Below, piece by piece: positions 4,489 to 61,037 of a stretch of 64,000 nt of DNA (the first letter of the stretch is position 1; every line of letters starts with the position of its first letter). A program made the position numbers and the translations under genes. The notes beneath the pieces are model-generated. The model saw only the letters and a list, made by a program, of their open reading frames with translations. It had not been told where the DNA came from and ran no database searches. This DNA comes from Escherichia coli (GTDB lineage: Bacteria > Pseudomonadota > Gammaproteobacteria > Enterobacterales > Enterobacteriaceae). The DNA lies in the NCBI RefSeq assembly GCF_003018255.1, contig NZ_CP027440.1; one strand, written 5' to 3'.

Positions 4489-6741
4489 TTATCCGTTCTG
4501 GACTTCACCCGCTAACCAGCGCGCCGCAGCAATAACCCCCTGCCCCAGAGACAATCCACCATCGCCCGCCGGTAAACTCTGCGGGAAGAGCAACGTAAAA
4601 TCAGCAAGATAATGCGCCAGACGTGCACGCAGCAAACGGTTATGAATAACTCCGCCGCTAAATACCAGCGTAGTGATACCCCGCATCGTGGCCTGCTCAC
4701 GCATCAACGCGGCAAAACCCTGCGCCAGCGCATCATGAAACGCCCACGCGCGTTGATTAACCGGAGCCTGCCAGCTCAGCCACTGCTGCCAGAAAGTGGC
4801 GAGATCCAGTTGATTGTCCACCAGCGGCATCGTCACCGGATGCGTCACTCCGTCGCACGAAGCTGCGAGCGCCTCCAGAGCACAAGCCGCTTCACCTTCA
4901 TAACTTAACGTGGCTGGCGCACAGCCCAGTCCCGCCGCCACAGCATCGAACAAACGCCCACACGATGACGCCAGCGGCGCGTTAATTCCACGCTCAATGG
5001 CCCGCGCCAGCACGCTCCAGTTTTGCTGTTGCACACTTGCCGTTTCAGGGTAATTCTGCCACTCCGGCACAAAGCGCAGGCACTGCGCCAGCAGGTTACG
5101 CCACGGCTGCTTCGCCGCCAAATCGCCCCCAGCAAGCGCCACTGCAGGCAAGCCGCCCAGGTGCTGGCATTCGCGATAGTTCACCCGCAGGCACTCGCCG
5201 CCCCACAAAGCGCCGTTCTCCCCCATACCGATACCGTCGAGCGTCAACGCAATGACATCACCGCCATCCAGTGGCCAGTGATGTTCTGCCAGACACGCCG
5301 CCGCATGAGCATGATGATGCAGCACCGTTTGCGTCGGCAGATTCATCTCACGCGCCCACTGGCTGGAGACATAGCCCGGATGCGCGTCATGCACAACGTA
5401 TTGCGGGGTGAAATCGTAGATGTTTTGCATCAGGCGTAACGCTTCGCGCCACTGCATCTGGATGCCATCGTCACTTAAATCGCCCAGATGCTGGCTCAAC
5501 ACCGCTTGTTCACCGCGCACCAGGCAGAAGGTATTTTTCAGATCCGCGCCGAGACACAGCACAGGCGGAACATTTTTAAAGCCCGGAGGCAAAGCCAGCG
5601 CATCCGGCACATACCCCCGCGAACGGCGCAGCATTTCGCCGCTTTCGCGCACCACCGAATCATCCATCCGCTGCACGATGTCGCGGTTATGTATCAAGAA
5701 TCCGTCGGCAATGCCCTGCAAATCCGCCAGCGCCTGTTCGTTGCTGATAGCCGGTGGTTTACCGCTCAGGTTGCCGGAGGTCATCACCAGCGGGCATTGC
5801 AGTTCCTGTAACAGCAAATGCTGGAGCGGGTTCGCAGGCAACATCACCCCAACTTCGTTAAGGCCAGGGGCGATATCATCACAAAGCTCAGGAACGTATT
5901 TTTTATCCACCAGCACAATCGGCGCGGCGGGTGTGGTAAGCAACTGACGGGCAGCGTCTGGTAAACCTTCTGCCACTGGCAACATAACCGCCAGCGGTTT
6001 CGCCGGGCGATGTTTGCGCGCCCGCAGTGTCGCCACCGCGTTACTGTTACGCGCATCGCAGGCGAGATGAAATCCGCCAATCCCTTTGATGGCGACAATG
6101 TTGCCCATTTTTAACTGTGCGATAGCTGCCTGTAATGCCGCCTCTTGTTCTGCATGTTCACCATGACTTACCCATTCAAGATGGGGGCCACACTCCGGGC
6201 AGGCCACCGGCTGGGCGTGGAAGCGACGATCGAGCGGGTCACGGTACTCTTTGTCACAGGCCGGACACAGCGGAAACGCCGCCATCACGGTAAACGGGCG
6301 GTCGTAAGGCATGGCGCGAATAATGGTGAAACGCGGACCACAGTGAGTACAGTTGATAAACGGATAACGCCAGCGTCGTTCGCCTGGGGTATTCATTTCG
6401 GCAAGACAAGCAGGGCAAGTCGCGGCATCCGGGACAATTTGCGTATTCATGACGCCACCCGCGCTCTGGCGGATGGTGAACTCAGTGGGCAGTTGTGACC
6501 AGATAAACGGCTCACGCTCGACGCTATCAATACGCGCCAGTGGCGGGCAGTGCTGATGCAACTGCACAAGAAACGTTTCCGGATCTTCCAGCAGCCGGAC
6601 TTCTACGCCATCGCCGTCATTACAGACATCGCCGTGAAGATTTAATTGCTGTGCCAGTTGCCAGACAAACGGACGAAAACCGACGCCCTGCACTTTGCCA
6701 CGAATACGCAGTTGGACACCGCAAGATGTGTTTTTTGCCAT
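4489..6741 (-). CDS. hypF: [NiFe]-hydrogenase maturation carbamoyltransferase HypF
   Basis: ORF track 774 aa frame; start placed at internal Met ([19 protein letters not shown]...) giving 750 aa; acylphosphatase domain, two CxxC zinc-finger pairs, YrdC and Kae1-like regions. Confidence 0.94.
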
Positions 6742-50365: not shown

Positions 50366-51188
50366 CGGTTTATCCCCGCTGACGCGGGGAACACACATGA
50401 ATGTCGGTTCAGACCGTGTTTTTACCCGGTTTATCCCCGCTGGCGCGGGGAACACGAGGCTGAACAGGGAGGGGGCTACCGGCACAGCGGTTTATCCCCG
50501 CTGGCGCGGGGAACACTTGCCAACCGCCAAAGACTGGAAAACCAATCTCGGTTTATCCCCGCTGGCGCGGGGAACACTTAAACTTGCCGCCGGTATGGGG
50601 GGAACGGGCCGGTTTATCCCCGCTGGCGCGGGGAACTCGTTTCGCGTCGATCGCCTTTTGCGCAATCGCGCCGGTTTATCCCCGCTGGCGCGGGGAACTC
50701 TTTCTTTTTCCATTTAAGTTATTCTAATACCCCGGTTTATCCCCGCTGGCGCGGGGAACTCGATCATGCCTTACTAAAAGGTCCGCTGACGGGCGGTTTA
50801 TCCCCGCTGGCGCGGGGAACTCATCATGACAAAAAGTTACGCTCATCTATTCAACGGTTTATCCCCGCTGGCGCGGGGAACTCTCCATATGTTGCCCCGC
50901 TCGGGACAACACCCCCGGTTTATCCCCGCTGGCGCGGGGAACTCTTAGCGCCGACAAAAGAAGTTGCGGATAACAGCGGTTTATCCCCGCTGGCGCGGGG
51001 AACTCGCCCGTTCCCAGGGAGTGCGGCTCCACCCCCGCGGTTTATCCCCGCTGACGCGGGGAACTCTTCAGTTTCACACTCGGTAATGCCGTTATTTACG
51101 GTTTATCCCCGCTGGCGCGGGGAACTCCTCGGGGCCAGCCTCCCCCATTAACCCGGCACCGGTTTATCCCCGCTGGCGCGGGGAACTC
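50366..51188 (-). CRISPR. Type I-E CRISPR array, 14 direct repeats of 29 bp (plus-strand form CGGTTTATCCCCGCTGGCGCGGGGAACTC) separated by 13 spacers of 32-33 bp; transcribed on the minus strand from the leader at 51189-51293
   Basis: Repeats located by eye at 50366, 50427, 50488, 50549, 50610, 50672, 50733, 50794, 50855, 50916, 50977, 51038, 51099, 51160 (61-62 bp period); repeat is reverse complement of the I-E repeat GAGTTCCCCGCGCCAGCGGGGATAAACCG; adjacent cas2-cas1. Confidence 0.97.
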
Positions 51189-54879: not shown

Positions 54880-55362
54880 TTACGCATTTTTGTTTGTGGT
54901 CAATACAAAATCTTCCAGAAGTTGCTGGCGTTCGCGCTTTCCCCACCAGGTCAACATCCTGGCCATTAATGGCCAGTCAAGTACGGGTTCGGCGTGAGTA
55001 AGTAATCGACGTAACTGGACCATATCGGCTGTTCTGTCAGCCCGAATTAATTGAAAGATACGGCGCTCGTTAATTCTTCCACTATTGGCTAAAGCTCTTC
55101 CCAACGAGATACCTGTTGTTTGCTCCGTTTTTTTGTCCTGATGTCGGATGACATTCTTTCCTGCGCTCAGGCAAAACACCATGCGCAAAAGAGCCTGCTG
55201 GTGACGTGGGTTTTCCCAACCAAAAGATTGCACCAGCCTATAAAACGCAGGGATATCGCGTAATTCATCAGGTTCTGAAACACGTCTAATTTGCGCACAT
55301 GCTCCATTATCCAGTTGTTGCCAGGCTCGATATAAAGCCATTGCATCAATTTCATCAGCCAT
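54880..55362 (-). CDS. cse2: Cse2 (CasB) Cascade small subunit
   Basis: ORF track 160 aa. Confidence 0.94.
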   Translation of the reverse strand: MADEIDAMALYRAWQQLDNGACAQIRRVSEPDELRDIPAFYRLVQSFGWENPRHQQALLRMVFCLSAGKNVIRHQDKKTEQTTGISLGRALANSGRINERRIFQLIRADRTADMVQLRRLLTHAEPVLDWPLMARMLTWWGKRERQQLLEDFVLTTNKNA

Positions 55363-56863
55363 TTGATGGCCCTCCTTGAGGTTTTAACTCCCGTAAATGT
55401 TTGTATAGCGTGGCGCGGGCAAGCGCTAATGTGCTTATTAATTTAGGATGATGTGCATAGGGAGCTACAGATTGATTAAATAGCATTTCACACAATTGAT
55501 GAAGTTTGTCTCGTAAATCAGCTATTACCTCATCAGCTTGGGAAAAATTAATATTCGCCAATACATCGGGAATTAATAATTCACTCTGTCGATAGAAATG
55601 CCTTTCTGCAGTCTCATGAACAGAAACTCCGGCCCCTTTGAAGTCTTTATTTTTAAACCCTTCTGCAAAGGTATATAACGCCTTGCGTAAGGCTGTTTTA
55701 TATCCCAAACCAACAGTCACTATTTCGTTTATCACATTGCCGTATTGTTGCCACCCCTGATTAAACATCAACACATCATGACGCCGTTCAAGAATAGATG
55801 CTTGATTATTACGATATCCCCCCATAATCAATTCAAGAGGACTTTGCGGCGCAATATTTCTGAATTGATTCACAACCGCCGCCACGCGATTTCCATTTTC
55901 ATTTTGAATAATCTTATCTACCACAACTCGGCTGATTTGTGTCCATGATGGTGCGGAGGTGGTGAAAGCAAGAAATTTTTCCTCAACCTCCCCTTTCTTG
56001 ACTGTTACCAGACAAGGGGAATGCGGATGGGGCCATAGCCCATTAACTGTAAAGGTAAATTTTTCCTTAAGAAAACCGGTATAACGCAAATTGCTTTCCT
56101 GACCACAGCAAGAACATTTACCAATCCCAATGGGATCGCATAGTTCAATATGCGCTGGTTGCCAGAATAAACCACGGACAAACCCAATTGAAGAAGCAGG
56201 CACCGATTCATTCGGCTTGACAGGCTTAACCCAGGTAGGTTGGTTTTCCGTATGTAATTCATTGGGAAATTGTTTTTGAAGACGAGGTATTGTGAGGACA
56301 TTGAGTAATACCGTCGAGCGAAGATCGATCCCACATACGAAGGTGGTTATAGGTGTTCCTCCACGTAAACCGCTTTTAAAGCCACCACCAAAACCAGGTG
56401 CCTGATTCGCCTGGTTGAATAACGCAATCGCAGTGCATCCACCACATAATGCTTCACCCTGCCCCGGTTGATTGACAAATGCACAATTCGTCGCGCCGCT
56501 TACCCCAGCCAACAGTTTTTCCATTGGAGTCACATCATTTGCTTTGACACCTTTGGTCTGCATAAAGGGATGTTCTGCGTGATTAAGGTAGAACATATCT
56601 ATCCACGGCGCGATGAGTTGTTGAAACTCATCTTCAGTGAGCGGATTCATTATGCGATGTCGAAATTCAACGTCATCTTTTGCCGGGGCGATAATTTGCC
56701 CAATGCAAACCAGCAGTGCTAAAGTGGCCAGTTCCATATCGTCACGGGGCAAACTTAATCGCCACTGATCTCTACTGCAGTATAGCGATTGCAGATTTAT
56801 GATTTGGACTTTCCCCCCGTTTCGCGGGCGTACAGGGATCCAGTTATCAATAAGCAAATTCAT
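55355..56863 (-). CDS. cse1: Cse1 (CasA) Cascade large subunit
   Basis: ORF track 502 aa (MNLLIDNWIPVRPRNGG...). Confidence 0.95.
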   Translation of the reverse strand: MNLLIDNWIPVRPRNGGKVQIINLQSLYCSRDQWRLSLPRDDMELATLALLVCIGQIIAPAKDDVEFRHRIMNPLTEDEFQQLIAPWIDMFYLNHAEHPFMQTKGVKANDVTPMEKLLAGVSGATNCAFVNQPGQGEALCGGCTAIALFNQANQAPGFGGGFKSGLRGGTPITTFVCGIDLRSTVLLNVLTIPRLQKQFPNELHTENQPTWVKPVKPNESVPASSIGFVRGLFWQPAHIELCDPIGIGKCSCCGQESNLRYTGFLKEKFTFTVNGLWPHPHSPCLVTVKKGEVEEKFLAFTTSAPSWTQISRVVVDKIIQNENGNRVAAVVNQFRNIAPQSPLELIMGGYRNNQASILERRHDVLMFNQGWQQYGNVINEIVTVGLGYKTALRKALYTFAEGFKNKDFKGAGVSVHETAERHFYRQSELLIPDVLANINFSQADEVIADLRDKLHQLCEMLFNQSVAPYAHHPKLISTLALARATLYKHLRELKPQGGPSNG

Positions 56864-57277
56864 TTGTTCTCCTTCATATGCTCCGACATTTCTCCTGCAT
56901 TTCTATGCGTCGGCACACTTCCGTTATCGGTAAAAACAAAGAAAAAATACGGCGTAATTAATTCAATAATCACATTCACTGCAAAAATATATTCATTGGT
57001 TTAATACAATTAACCTATACATATATTAAGATGTGTTGAATTGTTTAAAGACAATAATGCATGCATTTCAAATCTGCAAGTTATTCGTTTTATTATCAAA
57101 GAAATTTTTAGTTATAATAATTACCATAAATTTTATTACATAAAATATTCATACTGTGAATATAAAATCTCATACCGGGAAATTAAAAGAAGATGTACAT
57201 TGTGCACTTTCCCTACTTAAGTAGGGATAAACCGTTATTGGTCTTGTTATCGTCATTGATACCAATCATTCCCGAAG
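56864..57277 (-). promoter_or_regulatory. AT-rich cas3-cse1 intergenic region expected to carry the Cascade operon promoter (Pcas) and H-NS/LeuO control sites
   Basis: 414 bp strongly AT-rich non-coding stretch directly upstream of cse1; regulatory assignment is from established E. coli knowledge, exact promoter positions not determined here. Confidence 0.6.
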
Positions 57278-59944
57278 TTATTTGGGATTTGCAGGGATGA
57301 CTCTGGTCATCCCTTCATCCCGAGTGTAGGTAATAACAATATTATTACCCTGCCAGATCCATCCATCCTGATTCTGTTTCCCTTCCAGCCAAAGTAACCC
57401 ATCTTCATCTACTACTTCAGAAAAATTACGTTTCCAGGTGAAGGGTACATTGACGCGATTAAGTGCTAACGCCTCATACTGCTGTTCATGACTTAGGTCC
57501 TCGTAGACCTGGCCATCGAGCAGTTGTTTACCTGAAGACGTTTGTAAATAAGGCAATAATGGCAGGCTCATTTCCCCATCCCTCGTTACCGCAAGAATTG
57601 TTTCATCGTTATCCTGCAAGCTATATTCTTCAGCCCACTGCAGAACCTTGCGAGCCTTGAACCTCTTTTCACACTCAGCGCTTTCAAACTTATCCATGCC
57701 TTTGATGACCCATTCTGGCTCATCCATTTCAGCATCATCGTAAATGCTATCCAGCCATTGCCGGTAGGCATCGGGGAAAAATAAGGATGCTCCATTAAGT
57801 TCCTCAATATGTTGCTGCGTCCGCCACATGACTCTAACGTTGCTATAAATATGCTCATGTCGTCCGTAACCTTCGCCATCAGGCAGCAAAACGGTGGCAA
57901 GAGGAACCTCAAAACCAGCGGGACGATATTTGCGATGATGGCGATGTAAACGGCCCAATCGTTGGAAAAGTAAATCTGCGGGGCAATGCTGAGTAATTAA
58001 CCAATCAAAATCAACGTCGAGTGATTGTTCCACGACCTGGGTGGCGACAAGTATCCGTCCAACATTTCGCTTCCCATTTTTGCCGAAATTGCTAATAACT
58101 CGATTCTCTTTTTCACGACGATCGTTCAGCGTAAAGCGCGCATGAAACAAATCTATATCTACTTGCGTGTTATTTAGTTCCTTTAACCGTTGGTGGCATA
58201 GCTGTGCAACATCAACCAAATTGCAGATAAGACAGACTTGTGCACCCGCATTTGCCGCTACGATCATTCGCTCTAACATCCTAAGGTCAGGTAACATGTC
58301 AGCTAAATAAATAGGTTCTGGCCGAATCGAAAAGCGGGGCGGGAGTTGTTCTGAATGAGCTAACAGATCAAAACGTTGTGCACCATTCACACCTCGCCAG
58401 TTAATGAGTGGATATGCGGAGTTATTTTCCTCTGGATCTGTATGCAGACCATAAGTATCCAGAAGTTTCTGTTTTTGTTTCATTGGTAGAGTTGCGGAAA
58501 GAAGAATAACACTCCCCCCCACATCAGCCTGAGCCTTGAGCACAGCCTCCAGCAAGCCGTTCATATACGTGTCGTAAGCATGAACTTCATCAACAATTAA
58601 AACACTTCGACCAATTCCCAAACCACGGATAAAGCGGTGTTTAACTGGCAATACCGATATCAACACCTGATCAATCGTGCAAACGCCGATTTGCCCAAGA
58701 AACACTTTCTTATTGCTTTGTGACAACCACTGACAACACTGAACCCATGCTTCTTCTTGCCCCTGCTCAGTAAATGCGCGTGATTTTATTGATTGAAAAA
58801 GGTGGTTAAAACGTGAATTACCATGAGCAAGAATAAGATTTGGGGAGGTAAATAAACGGCTCGCGTTCGCTTCCATTCTGCTGAGCATTGCATTTGCAGT
58901 AGCTTGTGTAGGGAGGGCAAAAATAACACTATCCGCAAGTTGTTGGTCAATAAGTTTCCAGGCATAGGCCAGCGCAGTTTCAGTTTTACCTGAACCCGTA
59001 GGTGCCTCTATTACCGTCAGCCCGGGCGCTACTGGAAGAGCATCAACTAACACTTGTAATTGTCTGGGTTGATAGCCATTGTCCAGTAGAGCATGAACAC
59101 CTTCATAACATCGCTTATTTGATACAAGGCCGCTCAACTCCAATACCCGGCTCGCATCCTGCTGTCGGTCCTGGAAATACGTTCTTAGAGCATTTATGTT
59201 GGAAGGTGCATCCTCTTTAAACAGAAAGGTATTCGTTGTAGTCCAGGAGCCTAACCAGTCAGCAAGCGAGCAAAAACCTGCTAACAGTGATGAACAATCA
59301 GGTGGTATATCGTTTATAGATAACCCGGCTGGCGTTAAAAATAATGCTTCGAGTACAGATATCCACTCCTCACGAGCCTGTTTATCTTGCGCAGCATAAG
59401 ATGCCAGAGAAGCTGGCATTTCCCAACGCGACTTATCTTGATCCTGGGAATGTAATATAAAACCATGATGTCCTGTAACAGCCTCTACCCATGGAAACCA
59501 GGACTCATAAGGATGAGGAGCGGCATCAAAAAAACTGAAAAAATCCCCGGGAGATTGCTCTGAAAGTGAATCCTGGTTAAACCAATACAGACCGGCTGCA
59601 CCATGATTAAATTTACGGCACATTTGTGTTGATGGACCATTAAGTGATGGCGTTGCAGGATTTAATTTCAGCCAACTTTCTGCTGATTTATATTGGAATC
59701 GTATATCAAACTTTCCGATATCATGAAGGGCAATGAAAAATAACAGCCAGGCTTTCACCTTCTGTTTTGATAGCATTTCATTTCGGCAAAAAGCATTTTG
59801 TAGTACGACTGATTGATCCCACCAGCAATCTGCAACAGCTGCAACATCCAGGCAATGATAAATCAACAGATGAATATCATTTCCTTTCGTCAGGCTTTTT
59901 GAGGATTTCCCCCAGTAATGACATATATATTTAAAAGGTTCCAT
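57278..59944 (-). CDS. cas3: Cas3 HD-nuclease/helicase (type I-E)
   Basis: ORF track 888 aa; HD motif (ALHDIGKFD), Walker A EAPTGSGKTE, DEVH box (LIVDEVHAYD); SD GGGAGG 7 nt upstream of ATG. Confidence 0.96.
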   Translation of the reverse strand: MEPFKYICHYWGKSSKSLTKGNDIHLLIYHCLDVAAVADCWWDQSVVLQNAFCRNEMLSKQKVKAWLLFFIALHDIGKFDIRFQYKSAESWLKLNPATPSLNGPSTQMCRKFNHGAAGLYWFNQDSLSEQSPGDFFSFFDAAPHPYESWFPWVEAVTGHHGFILHSQDQDKSRWEMPASLASYAAQDKQAREEWISVLEALFLTPAGLSINDIPPDCSSLLAGFCSLADWLGSWTTTNTFLFKEDAPSNINALRTYFQDRQQDASRVLELSGLVSNKRCYEGVHALLDNGYQPRQLQVLVDALPVAPGLTVIEAPTGSGKTETALAYAWKLIDQQLADSVIFALPTQATANAMLSRMEANASRLFTSPNLILAHGNSRFNHLFQSIKSRAFTEQGQEEAWVQCCQWLSQSNKKVFLGQIGVCTIDQVLISVLPVKHRFIRGLGIGRSVLIVDEVHAYDTYMNGLLEAVLKAQADVGGSVILLSATLPMKQKQKLLDTYGLHTDPEENNSAYPLINWRGVNGAQRFDLLAHSEQLPPRFSIRPEPIYLADMLPDLRMLERMIVAANAGAQVCLICNLVDVAQLCHQRLKELNNTQVDIDLFHARFTLNDRREKENRVISNFGKNGKRNVGRILVATQVVEQSLDVDFDWLITQHCPADLLFQRLGRLHRHHRKYRPAGFEVPLATVLLPDGEGYGRHEHIYSNVRVMWRTQQHIEELNGASLFFPDAYRQWLDSIYDDAEMDEPEWVIKGMDKFESAECEKRFKARKVLQWAEEYSLQDNDETILAVTRDGEMSLPLLPYLQTSSGKQLLDGQVYEDLSHEQQYEALALNRVNVPFTWKRNFSEVVDEDGLLWLEGKQNQDGWIWQGNNIVITYTRDEGMTRVIPANPK

Positions 59945-60302: not shown

Positions 60303-61037
60303 TTACCCTTCGTGTAACCCACATTCCCTTTTTAAGCCAAAGAAACGCGTTTCTTCTTCCGCCATGCCGGGTTCCCATTTACGGGTTGTATGGGTATCAC
60401 CGACCGATAAATATCCTTCGTCCCATAATGGGTGATATTTCAGGCCATGTTTTTGCAGGTACTGATAAATAGTTCGGTTATCCCAGTCGATAATCGGCAG
60501 CACTTTAAATACGCCACGCTGAATTGCCAGCACCGGTAAATTGGCGCGGCTGCCGGATTGTTCACGGCGCAGGCCAGCAAACCAGGTTTGCGCATTCAGT
60601 TCTTTCAGCGCCCGGTTCATCGGTTCGACTTTGTTGATCTCGTTGTACTTCTCAATCCCCTCAACACCCTGCTCCCACAGTTTACCGTAGCGCGCTTCCT
60701 GCCAGGCGGCGCTTTCGGTAGCGCGGTACACTTTCAGGTTGAGCTTGAGTTTGTCCGTTAACTCGTCAATAAAGCGGTAGGTTTCTGGGAACAGATAGCC
60801 GGTATCGGTGAGGATCACCGGAATATCCGGGCGAATCTGATTCACCAGATGCAGGCTCACCGCCGCCTGAATGCCAAAGCTGGAAGAAAGTACATATTCA
60901 CCGGGCAGATTATCCAGCGCCCAGGCAACGCGGCCTTCAGCGTCCAGTTTTTCCAGTTCGGCGTTAGTTTCCGCCAGCGCCAGAATGCGATCTACCTTCG
61001 GCAGTTCGTTCAGGGCGTTTAGATCGAGTTTGGACAT
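60303..61037 (-). CDS. cysH: Phosphoadenosine phosphosulfate (PAPS) reductase
   Basis: ORF track frame 257 aa; start placed at [17 protein letters not shown] (244 aa); C-terminal ECGLH motif. Confidence 0.96.

What the first reader, a model, noticed from the sequence alone, without database searches (positions are those of the whole stretch)
57195..57235. CRISPR-repeat-like fragment and perfect palindrome inside the cas3-cse1 intergenic region
At 57208-57223 there is a perfect 16-bp palindrome CCCTACTTAAGTAGGG. It overlaps GGGATAAACCG (57216-57226), which is an exact 11-nt match (12/13 with flanks) to the 3' end of the I-E repeat (..CGGGGATAAACCG), here in inverted orientation relative to the array. 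An 11-mer match is expected by chance only about 0.03 times in this window. It sits just downstream of the cas3 stop and upstream of cse1, so it could be a cas3 terminator hairpin, a regulator-binding palindrome, or a vestige of an ancestral repeat.
Basis: seen in the sequence. Interest (0 to 1): 0.4.

Follow-up and report, generated by a model that had tools for sequence, protein, structure and literature searches.

The report
Degenerate mini-CRISPR regulating cas genes
The palindrome is the first pseudo-repeat of a tiny degenerate CRISPR array, lying backwards between cas3 and cse1, whose "spacer" matches a site beside the cas promoter; this is a known kind of self-regulating guide RNA (CreR) that has apparently already been noted for E. 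coli.

Summary
The palindrome is at 57211-57226 (18 bp as 57210-57227) and GGGATAAACCG is at 57224-57234, on the + strand, antisense to the cas genes and the array.

Taken alone it is weak evidence. The window has two other chance 11-mer matches to the repeat and another 18-bp palindrome.

In context it is ψR1 of a mini-array:
- ψR1, 57206-57234: same hairpin geometry as the repeat, plus an intact ATAAACCG 5' handle.
- ψS, 57235-57265: 31 nt.
- ψR2, 57266-57294: second hairpin, overlapping the cas3 stop codon.

ψS matches an AAG-flanked site 154 nt upstream (57078-57112) at 14 of 15 pairing positions. Three of the four mismatches are at flipped-out positions 6, 12 and 18. None of 20,000 shuffles reaches 14.

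Eleven loci from other taxa share the architecture, each with its own ψS matching its own target. Three compensatory or restoring seed changes occur within the E. coli-like lineage.

It has no terminator features, and the perfect palindrome is not conserved.

This fits CreR-type autorepression. Shmakov et al. 2023 describe such a mini-array in "the E. coli I-E locus", and Liu et al. list a "K12creA" plasmid. Function in E. coli is inferred, not shown.

The parts
57206..57234 (+). ψR1, the pseudo-repeat ACTTTCCCTACTTAAGTAGGGATAAACCG. It has a 7-bp stem with a 4-nt loop at 57210-57227 and the 8-nt crRNA 5' handle ATAAACCG at 57227-57234.
   Evidence: 19 of 29 positions identical to the array repeat, with the same hairpin geometry and compensatory stem changes. 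The hairpin is part of the minimum-free-energy fold. The hairpin and handle are invariant in 6 E. coli strains. Homologous ψR1 sits at the same offset in L074.
57235..57265 (+). ψS, a 31-nt spacer-like sequence TTATTGGTCTTGTTATCGTCATTGATACCAA.
   Evidence: Its length is one nt short of the array's 32-33 nt spacers. Its first 17 nt match the PAM-flanked site at 57081. Seed positions co-vary with the target in JNE151685 and L074.
57266..57294 (+). ψR2, the degenerate second pseudo-repeat TCATTCCCGAAGTTATTTGGGATTTGCAG. Its hairpin is at 57270-57287. It overlaps the cas3 stop codon (57278-57280) and the last cas3 codons on the opposite strand.
   Evidence: 14 of 29 positions identical to the repeat, with the same TT-CCC...GGG-A hairpin geometry. 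Equivalent ψR2 hairpins lie 21-33 nt after the handle in most orthologues.
57078..57080 (+). AAG, the canonical type I-E PAM immediately 5' of the predicted protospacer.
   Evidence: The best target carries an AAG PAM in all 11 loci from other taxa.
57081..57112 (+). Predicted CreR target (protospacer). Effective pairing is 57081-57097, TTATTCGTTTTATTATC; the PAM-distal part does not match.
   Evidence: 14 of 15 pairing positions over positions 1-17, with three of the four mismatches over positions 1-18 at 6, 12 and 18. It is the best hit on both strands of the 64-kb window. 0 of 20,000 spacer shuffles and none of about 800 other registers reach 14.
57090..57118 (+). Candidate promoter for the mini-array (inferred; possibly the published anti-Pcas): -35 TTATTA 57090-57095, 17-nt spacer, -10 TATAAT 57113-57118. 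The -35 lies inside the protospacer.
   Evidence: Consensus scan only (overlapping sites). The number of such sites in this AT-rich region is no more than chance. The assignment is supported by analogy: seven of nine orthologues have a promoter-like site just upstream of ψR1, and in three of them (L008, L048, L057) its -35 lies within the 32-nt protospacer.
57051..57079 (-). Candidate Pcas core (inferred, weak 7/12 match): -35 TTGCAG 57079-57074, overlapping the complement of the PAM; 17-nt spacer; -10 TATTGT 57056-57051.
   Evidence: Read directly from the sequence. The recurring 'complement of PAM + G = C-TTGnnn' arrangement is seen in 8 of the 10 loci laid out. It has not been checked against the mapped Pcas start site, because Pul et al. 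2010 is not held.

Best explanation
The palindrome is the stem-loop of ψR1, the first pseudo-repeat of a degenerate two-repeat mini-CRISPR (ψR1-ψS-ψR2, 57206-57294). It lies on the strand opposite the cas operon, in the cas3-cse1 spacer of a K-12-type E. coli I-E locus. It is a CreR-type (Cas-regulating, crRNA-like) RNA gene.

Proposed mechanism:
1. The + strand is transcribed from a promoter in the intergenic region, probably the published 'anti-Pcas' promoter, whose 150-200-nt product has no known role.
2. Cas6e cleaves at the 3' base of both hairpins. This yields a roughly 60-nt RNA: the AUAAACCG handle, the 31-nt ψS, and the ψR2 hairpin.
3. Cascade loads this RNA and binds the AAG-flanked site at 57078-57112, using only the first 17 nt or so of the guide.
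4. That R-loop is too short to license Cas3 cleavage. Cascade therefore sits as a roadblock on the divergent promoter region, repressing the cse1 (Cascade) operon and probably its own promoter.
5. The resulting negative feedback is relieved when real crRNAs or anti-CRISPRs titrate Cascade.

Shown here: the anatomy, the statistical significance of the self-match, the conserved architecture, and ψS-target covariation. Inferred: transcription, Cas6e processing, Cascade loading, repression, and the exact promoter positions.
For: - Anatomy. ψR1 is 19/29 identical to the repeat, with identical geometry and an intact 8-nt handle. ψR2 keeps the hairpin that forms the crRNA 3' handle. This is the asymmetry reported for CreA/CreR.
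- Specificity. The hairpin motif occurs only at the array and at these two sites, 60 nt apart.
- Fold. Both hairpins appear in the minimum-free-energy structure, z = -3.4.
- Self-target. AAG PAM with 14 of 15 pairing positions, and mismatches at 6, 12, 18 and 9 only. It is unique in the window; 0 of 20,000 shuffles reach it; only the true register scores this high.
- Covariation inside the lineage. In JNE151685, ψS position 7 and target position 7 are both G->A, and target position 9 T->C restores a match. In L074, position 8 is T->C in both ψS and target.
- Same architecture elsewhere. Citrobacter, Marinomonas, Methylococcaceae, Methylovulum, Edaphovirga, Izhakiella, Pantoea, Porticoccaceae, Pseudomonadales and L077 each have a different ψS matching its own AAG-flanked site. 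Own scores are 10-15; non-cognate scores average 8.6 with a maximum of 12.
- Stem covariation. 20 cells carry double-sided changes; 0 of 500 shuffles reach that.
- Footprint. In the diverged intergenic regions that keep the element (E. coli, L074, L077), PAM+seed, ψR1+handle+ψS start and ψR2 are the conserved blocks.
- Literature. I-E mini-arrays between cas3 and cas8, transcribed opposite to cas3 and targeting an AAG-flanked site upstream of Pcas, are described for 'the E. coli I-E locus'. A Salmonella I-E CreR repressed PcasA through E. coli Cascade. A 'K12creA' plasmid is listed. The anti-Pcas RNA is 150-200 nt, overlaps the cas3 transcript, and has no known role.
Against: - Nothing here shows expression, processing or repression.
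- The window and K-12 have a true mismatch at guide position 9, and K-12 has another at position 17, giving 13/15.
- ψS is 31 nt, not 32.
- E. coli has about 70 extra nt between target and ψR1, so the promoter-overlap logic seen in orthologues holds only if the distal promoter candidate is the real one.
- Promoter-like hits in this AT-rich spacer are no more frequent than in shuffles.
- Liu et al. built K12 creA and K12 Pcas constructs but report only the Salmonella element. That could mean the K-12 test was weak or negative.
- In wild-type K-12 the operon is silenced by H-NS, so the loop would matter only when H-NS repression is lifted.
- A Salmonella locus with the K-12-like cas variant has an eroded ψR1, so the element can be lost.
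- Orthologues were selected for a hairpin plus handle, so the percent-paired figure is partly circular.
Confidence: 0.8

Rival explanations
1. A non-functional relic. An ancient inverted or ectopic repeat-spacer-repeat unit is decaying neutrally in the spacer, and the match to the nearby site is a duplication remnant or coincidence.
For: The pseudo-repeats are strongly degenerate, at 19/29 and 14/29. ψR1 is eroded in a Salmonella locus. Only 9 of 66 species loci have a strict ψR1. Shmakov et al. consider some mini-arrays (type III) to be degraded and non-functional.
Against: Neutral decay would not keep the handle intact and preserve both stems through compensatory changes. It would not keep a PAM-flanked seed match whose sequence differs between taxa but tracks its own ψS, nor produce paired changes at seed positions 7 and 8. 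The mismatches fall at the structurally irrelevant positions 6, 12 and 18.
Confidence: 0.1
2. An antisense or termination element for cas3. The hairpins stop or stabilise the cas3 transcript, or the anti-Pcas RNA acts by base-pairing with the cas3 3' end, independently of Cascade. The reviews that cite Pul et al. 2010 describe this as the original authors' suggestion.
For: The element starts 52 nt after the cas3 stop codon, and ψR2 overlaps the stop and the last codons. The anti-Pcas RNA overlaps the cas3 transcript and was suggested to interfere with cas3 termination or translation. Because the stems are near-palindromic, they also form in the cas3 mRNA.
Against: There is no terminator signature and no U-tract on either strand. 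In several orthologues ψR2 does not overlap cas3. This model does not explain the handle, the repeat-like geometry or the PAM-flanked self-target. It is not mutually exclusive with the CreR model.
Confidence: 0.07
3. A protein-binding palindrome, acting as an operator for a dimeric regulator such as LeuO, CRP, SlyA or an unknown factor.
For: It is a perfect 18-bp palindrome. The intergenic region binds H-NS, LeuO, CRP and SlyA according to the literature.
Against: The palindrome is not conserved as such. Orthologous stems keep pairing but have asymmetric loops and different stem sequences. The sites reported in the texts I could read are placed near Pcas or the mini-array's start region, not at this position.
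Confidence: 0.03

Closest known systems
CreR (Cas-regulating RNA) of type I-E, validated for Salmonella enterica ATCC 51960 (Liu et al., bioRxiv 10.1101/2023.03.10.532045)
   Same: Both are degenerate mini-CRISPRs in the region upstream of casA/cse1. ψR1 keeps the 5' handle and ψR2 keeps the 3' hairpin. ψS matches an AAG-flanked site upstream of casA only over its PAM-proximal part, about 15-17 nt. The repeat differs by one nt from the E. coli one, and the Salmonella CreR works with E. coli Cascade.
   Different: The ψS is unrelated in sequence: TAGATACAGTCTTAA in Salmonella versus TTATTGGTCTTGTTATC here. The match is 15 consecutive nt in Salmonella and 14/15 with one real mismatch here. The target is about 140 bp upstream of casA in Salmonella and 217 bp here. 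No functional data for the E. coli element appear in the text.
I-E regulatory mini-array of Shmakov et al. 2023 (bioRxiv 10.1101/2023.03.03.530964; NAR 51:8150), Figure 4B, 'the E. coli I-E locus'
   Same: It lies between cas3 and cas8e and is transcribed opposite to cas3. The better-conserved repeat is next to the seed. The target has an AAG PAM in the region upstream of Pcas that overlaps the H-NS site. This matches what I derived independently, so it is very probably the same element.
   Different: I could not see the figure, the accession or the sequence, so identity is inferred from the text. That study is computational for I-E; its experiment was on I-F1. Their stated cut-off was a 16-bp BLASTN match, whereas the exact match here is 11 nt. 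The term 'anti-Pcas' does not occur in that preprint.
CreTA (CreA antitoxin RNA plus CreT toxin), type I-B Haloarcula hispanica
   Same: A crRNA-like RNA from a degenerate mini-array guides Cascade to a partially matching promoter for repression without cleavage.
   Different: No toxin partner is evident. The only ORF through the region (35 aa, 57193-57300) is not conserved, and in most orthologues the gap between target and ψR1 is too short (43-67 nt) to hold a gene.
anti-Pcas transcript of E. coli K-12 (Pul et al. 2010, as summarised in PMC7074321 and PMC10011333)
   Same: It comes from the same intergenic region and the same strand, opposite to cas3 and casA. It is 150-200 nt, predicted to be highly structured, overlaps the cas3 3' end, and is H-NS-repressed.
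   Different: Its start site is not available to me, so whether it covers 57206-57294 is inferred. Its published role is 'unknown', with a possible effect on cas3 termination or translation, rather than a guide RNA.

Membership tests
CreR / crRNA-like regulatory mini-array (type I-E) | Two repeat-like sequences flanking a spacer-length sequence, outside the CRISPR array and inside the cas locus | tested here: met
   ψR1 is 57206-57234, ψS is 31 nt, and ψR2 is 57266-57294, all between cas3 and cse1.
CreR / crRNA-like regulatory mini-array (type I-E) | ψR1 conserves the 5'-handle nucleotides; ψR2 conserves the hairpin that becomes the 3' handle | tested here: met
   The handle ATAAACCG is 8/8 in ψR1. 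Both have the 7-bp stem and 4-nt loop. The post-hairpin part of ψR2 is degenerate.
CreR / crRNA-like regulatory mini-array (type I-E) | ψS partially complementary, from the seed end, to a site with a functional PAM | tested here: met
   AAG PAM; 14 of 15 pairing positions within positions 1-17; no match beyond that. 0 of 20,000 shuffles reach this score.
CreR / crRNA-like regulatory mini-array (type I-E) | The target lies in or next to the promoter of the effector cas genes | tested here: inconclusive
   The target is 217 nt upstream of the cse1 ATG in the region reported to hold Pcas. The promoter hexamers I assign are weak consensus matches. Shmakov et al. state that the target is immediately upstream of Pcas.
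CreR / crRNA-like regulatory mini-array (type I-E) | ψS and target are maintained together in relatives | tested here: met
   Paired changes occur at seed positions 7 and 8, and position 9 is restored. Eleven loci from other taxa have cognate scores of 10-15 against a non-cognate mean of 8.6.
CreR / crRNA-like regulatory mini-array (type I-E) | Transcribed and processed by Cas6e into a crRNA-like RNA that loads into Cascade | not testable with these tools
   The only support is indirect and from the literature: an anti-Pcas RNA of 150-200 nt on this strand.
CreR / crRNA-like regulatory mini-array (type I-E) | Cascade- and ψS-dependent repression of the cas promoter, relieved by crRNA excess or Acr proteins | not testable with these tools
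   This has been shown for the Salmonella CreR in E. coli. No data are available for this element.
Canonical CRISPR array | Near-identical direct repeats with a leader that supports spacer acquisition | tested here: not met
   The pseudo-repeats are 19/29 and 14/29 identical to the repeat, and there are only two copies. Shmakov et al. report no IHF site in the mini-array leader.
Intrinsic (Rho-independent) terminator | GC-rich stem-loop followed by a U-tract | tested here: not met
   No terminator-like sites are found on either strand in 56800-57400. The tails are ATAAACCG on the + strand and AAAGTGCA on the - strand.
CreTA toxin-antitoxin RNA pair | An adjacent toxin gene whose promoter is the CreA target | tested here: not met
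   There is no conserved ORF or room for a gene between target and ψR1 in most orthologues. The 35-aa ORF in E. coli is not conserved. An RNA toxin cannot be excluded.
Any Rfam family | A match to a curated covariance model | tested here: not met
   No match at E <= 1 in 56700-57500 on either strand.

The most novel reading that the evidence does not exclude
The anti-Pcas transcript of E. coli K-12, mapped in 2010 and still listed as having no known role, may be the precursor of this CreR.

On this reading, the mature RNA places Cascade on a site whose PAM complement runs directly into the -35 hexamer of Pcas and which also covers the -35 of its own promoter. One bound Cascade would then shut both divergent promoters. 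That would give the model I-E system an H-NS-independent autoregulatory loop that senses crRNA load.

The held texts do not make this link explicitly, and no experiment on the K-12 element is reported in them.
Probability: 0.45. Interest if true: 0.5.

Novelty: already known. Interest (0 to 1): 0.33.

Why it matters
E. coli K-12 is the reference type I-E system. Its cas regulation is usually described only in terms of H-NS, LeuO, CRP and StpA.

A Cascade-guided autorepression loop encoded in the cas3-cse1 spacer would add an RNA layer that links Cascade production to crRNA load and to anti-CRISPR attack. It would also give a function to the orphan anti-Pcas RNA.

There are practical consequences. 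Engineered strains that replace or truncate this spacer remove either the guide or its target, which may change Cascade levels. A typical example is insertion of an inducible promoter upstream of cse1.

As a discovery it is modest. The class is established, and the E. coli element has apparently been noticed by two groups.

Tried and rejected
- Terminator reading: scanned both strands and found nothing.
- Rfam: no family matches.
- Exact Pcas and anti-Pcas start sites: Pul 2010, Westra 2010 and the NAR version of Shmakov 2023 are not held. The SlyA, Cas3-limiting and modelling papers give no coordinates.
- Toxin partner (CreT-like): the 35-aa ORF through the mini-array is not conserved.
- Population-level contrast in E. 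coli (mini-array versus adjacent spacer DNA): uninformative, because all copies are 95-100% identical. The window merely carries a rare C->T at 57208.
- Phage or viral mimic of this ψS (Cracr-like): no hit in viral contigs or GenBank phages.
- A Salmonella locus as a bridge to the validated CreR: the one retrieved carries the K-12-like cas variant with an eroded ψR1, not the ATCC 51960 element.
- Atlantibacter (L075) and L076: cas3 abuts cse1, so there is no room for an RNA gene.
- The second E. coli I-E cas variant was not examined.

Full report
**1. The observation**

The window carries a K-12-type E. coli type I-E locus on the minus strand.
- The array is at 50366-51188, with 14 repeats of GAGTTCCCCGCGCCAGCGGGGATAAACCG read on the minus strand.
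- cse1/casA is at 55355-56863.
- cas3 is at 57278-59944.

The window is not K-12 itself. K-12 is 98.4% identical across this spacer, and strain JNE23-011 is 100% identical. The spacer is present in 1,133 of 5,426 complete E. coli genomes.

- CCCTACTTAAGTAGGG is at 57211-57226, and is an 18-bp palindrome as 57210-57227.
- GGGATAAACCG is at 57224-57234, on the + strand and inverted relative to the array.

Taken alone it is not clearly beyond chance.
- Any 11-mer of the repeat is expected 0.58 times in the window.
- Two other such matches exist, at 5001 and 14594.
- A second 18-bp perfect palindrome sits at 54959.

**2. What it is**

On the + strand the motif is a pseudo-repeat, not a fragment. 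ψR1 (57206-57234) is ACTTT-CCCTAC-TTAA-GTAGGG-ATAAACCG, against GAGTT-CCCCGC-GCCA-GCGGGG-ATAAACCG for the repeat. Identity is 19/29, with the same stem and tetraloop, a closing U·A pair, and an intact 8-nt crRNA 5' handle.

Thirty-one nt further on lies a second hairpin of the same geometry. This is ψR2 (57266-57294), TCATT-CCCGAA-GTTA-TTTGGG-ATTTGCAG, and it overlaps the cas3 stop codon.

Two results support this layout.
- The motif T-CCC-xyz-N4-z'y'x'-GGG-A occurs in the 64-kb window only at the 14 repeats and at these two sites. They are 60 nt apart, against an array period of 61. Shuffles give 0.11 hits.
- Both hairpins are in the minimum-free-energy fold of the + strand RNA (-29.5 kcal/mol, z = -3.4).

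Rfam has no match, and RefSeq annotates nothing here.

**3. The spacer has a target in the same spacer DNA**

I scanned both strands of the window for seed matches to ψS (TTATTGGTCTTGTTATCG...). The top hit is at 57081, on the + strand, preceded by the canonical I-E PAM AAG (57078-57080). It reads TTATTCGTTTTATTATCA.

Over positions 1-18 the mismatches are at 6, 12, 18 and 9. The first three are the every-sixth bases that are flipped out in a Cascade R-loop (established I-E structural knowledge). That leaves 14 of 15 pairing positions matched, and beyond position 18 there is no match.

Controls:
- 0 of 20,000 shuffles of the spacer reach 14; the highest is 13, seen once.
- Among about 800 mock spacers taken from the same AT-rich region, only the true register immediately after ATAAACCG reaches 14.

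A caveat applies: I chose the scoring scheme after seeing the hit. However, it is the standard I-E pairing rule, and the cross-locus results below are independent of that choice.

**4. Comparative evidence**

*Within the E. coli-like lineage.*
- The 89%-identical strain JNE151685 has ψS position 7 G->A together with target position 7 G->A. Its target position 9 is T->C, which removes the one real mismatch.
- A metagenomic relative, L074 (Cse1 72% identical), has ψR1 at the identical offset, 347 nt from the cse1 ATG. Position 8 is T->C in both ψS and target, scoring 14/15.

*Across species.* A Cse1-alignment scan of species-representative genomes returned 66 loci.
- Nine have a strict hairpin plus handle. 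It is always antisense to cse1 and 160-280 nt upstream of it, and always in a long cas3-cse1 spacer. Most of the remaining loci have cas3 abutting cse1.
- Each ψS is different but matches its own AAG-flanked site upstream on the same strand at 10-15 of 15 positions.
- Non-cognate ψS/region pairs average 8.6, with a maximum of 12 (n = 124).
- L077 adds another case, at 12/15.
- Ten of the twelve sequences, and both L074 and L077, have a clean 6-bp TT-CCC...GGG ψR2 hairpin 21-33 nt after the handle.

*Stem covariation.* Across 18 ψR1, ψR2 and repeat sequences, 95% of stem cells pair, and 20 cells carry changes on both sides, all in the upper three base pairs. 0 of 500 shuffles reach that. The percent-paired figure is partly circular because I selected for at least 5 of 6 pairs. 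The double-sided changes are the informative part.

*Footprint.* In an alignment of diverged spacers, E. coli, L074 and L077 share PAM+seed, ψR1+handle+ψS start and ψR2 as conserved blocks. The Salmonella locus keeps only ψR2 well.

*Erosion.* That Salmonella locus carries the K-12-like cas variant, and its ψR1 is eroded, so the element can decay.

**5. Mechanism**

The anatomy and covariation fit the CreR model.
- A crRNA-like RNA is cut out of the mini-array by Cas6e and loaded into Cascade.
- It guides Cascade to a partially matching, PAM-flanked site at the cas promoter.
- The truncated R-loop gives binding without Cas3 cleavage.
- The result is autorepression that is relieved when bona fide crRNAs or Acr proteins titrate Cascade.

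*Promoter geometry (inferred).*
- In seven of the nine orthologues a σ70-like promoter sits on the mini-array strand with its -10 ending 8-10 nt before the ψR1 hairpin. In three of them (L008, L048, L057) the -35 lies within the 32-nt protospacer.
- On the cse1 strand, the complement of the PAM runs into a TTGnnn hexamer in 8 of the 10 loci (C-TTGAAT, C-TTGTAT, C-TTGCAG). This is a candidate Pcas -35.
- In E. coli the corresponding candidates are TTGCAG (57079-57074), 17 nt, TATTGT (57056-57051) for Pcas, and TTATTA (57090-57095), 17 nt, TATAAT (57113-57118) for the mini-array.
- These are weak consensus matches in AT-rich DNA, where hits are no more frequent than in shuffles, and I could not check them against mapped start sites.
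- E. coli has about 70 extra nt between target and ψR1, including a 21-nt tandem repeat at 57140-57188.

*Link to anti-Pcas.* The published anti-Pcas RNA is 150-200 nt, lies on this strand, overlaps cas3, is H-NS-repressed, and has no known role. A start near 57125 would place its 3' end just past ψR2. This link is my inference.

**6.

- Terminator: no signature on either strand.
- Regulator-binding palindrome: the palindrome is not conserved and only the RNA stem is.
- Vestige of a repeat: correct about the origin, but the covariation argues for maintained function.

**7. Comparison with what is known**

Shmakov et al. 2023 report that about 19% of bacterial I-E loci carry mini-arrays, typically in long cas3-cas8 spacers. 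For "the E. coli I-E locus" they describe:
- a mini-array transcribed opposite to cas3;
- a target with an AAG PAM;
- a target that overlaps the H-NS site immediately upstream of Pcas.

That is the arrangement I derived independently, although I could not see their figure or sequence.

Liu et al. validated a Salmonella I-E CreR in E. coli MG1655. Their plasmid table lists "Ptac-K12creA ... creA from E. coli MG1655" and "K12 Pcas-gfp (355 bp upstream of CasA)". A 355-bp fragment would end at window position 57218, inside the ψR1 hairpin. It would therefore contain the target but not a complete mini-array. No result for the K-12 constructs appears in the text.

I found no experimental report on the K-12 element in the held library and no phage copy of its ψS.

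**8. Verdict**

It belongs to an established class (CreR / crRNA-like regulatory mini-array) and has apparently already been described computationally for E. coli. I therefore rate novelty as "already known" and interest as modest.

What may still be new is the explicit link to anti-Pcas, the geometry in which one bound Cascade covers both divergent promoters, and experimental proof in K-12.

Noticed in passing
window 57140-57188: A tandem repeat of period 21 with 2.3 copies (consensus ATAAAATACTCATACCGGGAAA). It lies in the roughly 70 nt that E. coli has between the target and ψR1 but orthologues lack. It may be a duplication that moved the mini-array away from its target and promoter.
   Followed up: partly
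window 57193-57300 (+): A 35-aa hydrophobic ORF (MYIVHFPYLSRDKPLLVLLSSLIPIIPEVIWDLQG) runs through ψR1-ψS-ψR2. It has no counterpart in orthologues, and the stop is lost in strain JNE151685. It is probably spurious rather than a CreT-like toxin.
   Followed up: yes
window 54959-54976 and 60340-60355: Two further perfect palindromes: 18 bp at 54959, inside the cse2-like ORF (54880..55362), and 16 bp at 60340. The shuffle expectation for 18-bp palindromes is 0.27 per window.
   Followed up: no
window 5001 (+) and 14594 (-): Two other exact 11-mer matches to the GC-rich part of the CRISPR repeat, far from the cas locus. They are consistent with chance (0.58 expected) and show that an 11-mer match alone is weak evidence.
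   Followed up: partly
window 50366-51188: Array heterogeneity. The four repeats at 50366-50549 read GTGTT... where the other ten read GAGTT.... Two repeats (50366 and 51038) carry CGCGTCAGCG instead of CGCGCCAGCG. One spacer is 33 nt rather than 32.
   Followed up: no
E. coli records NZ_CP029180.1 (H82) and NZ_AP027800.1 (H94): In these strains the mini-array or the adjacent spacer DNA matches in two separate places, each with partial coverage. This suggests an insertion, possibly an IS element, that splits the region.
   Followed up: no
L072 (Salmonella enterica, GCA_900456175.1), antisense strand about 335-420 nt upstream of cse1: A Salmonella locus with the K-12-like cas variant (Cse1 78% identical) has a homologous region. 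Its ψR2 is intact but ψR1 and the handle are eroded (CCCTCTTGTCGGATGGGTAAACCA). This looks like a decaying copy.
   Followed up: partly
L006, L007, L040 (Xenorhabdus), L011 (Pantoea), L046, L054, L070: These loci have long cas3-cse1 spacers (about 300-475 nt) but no strict hairpin plus handle by my criteria. They may hold more degenerate mini-arrays or something else.
   Followed up: no
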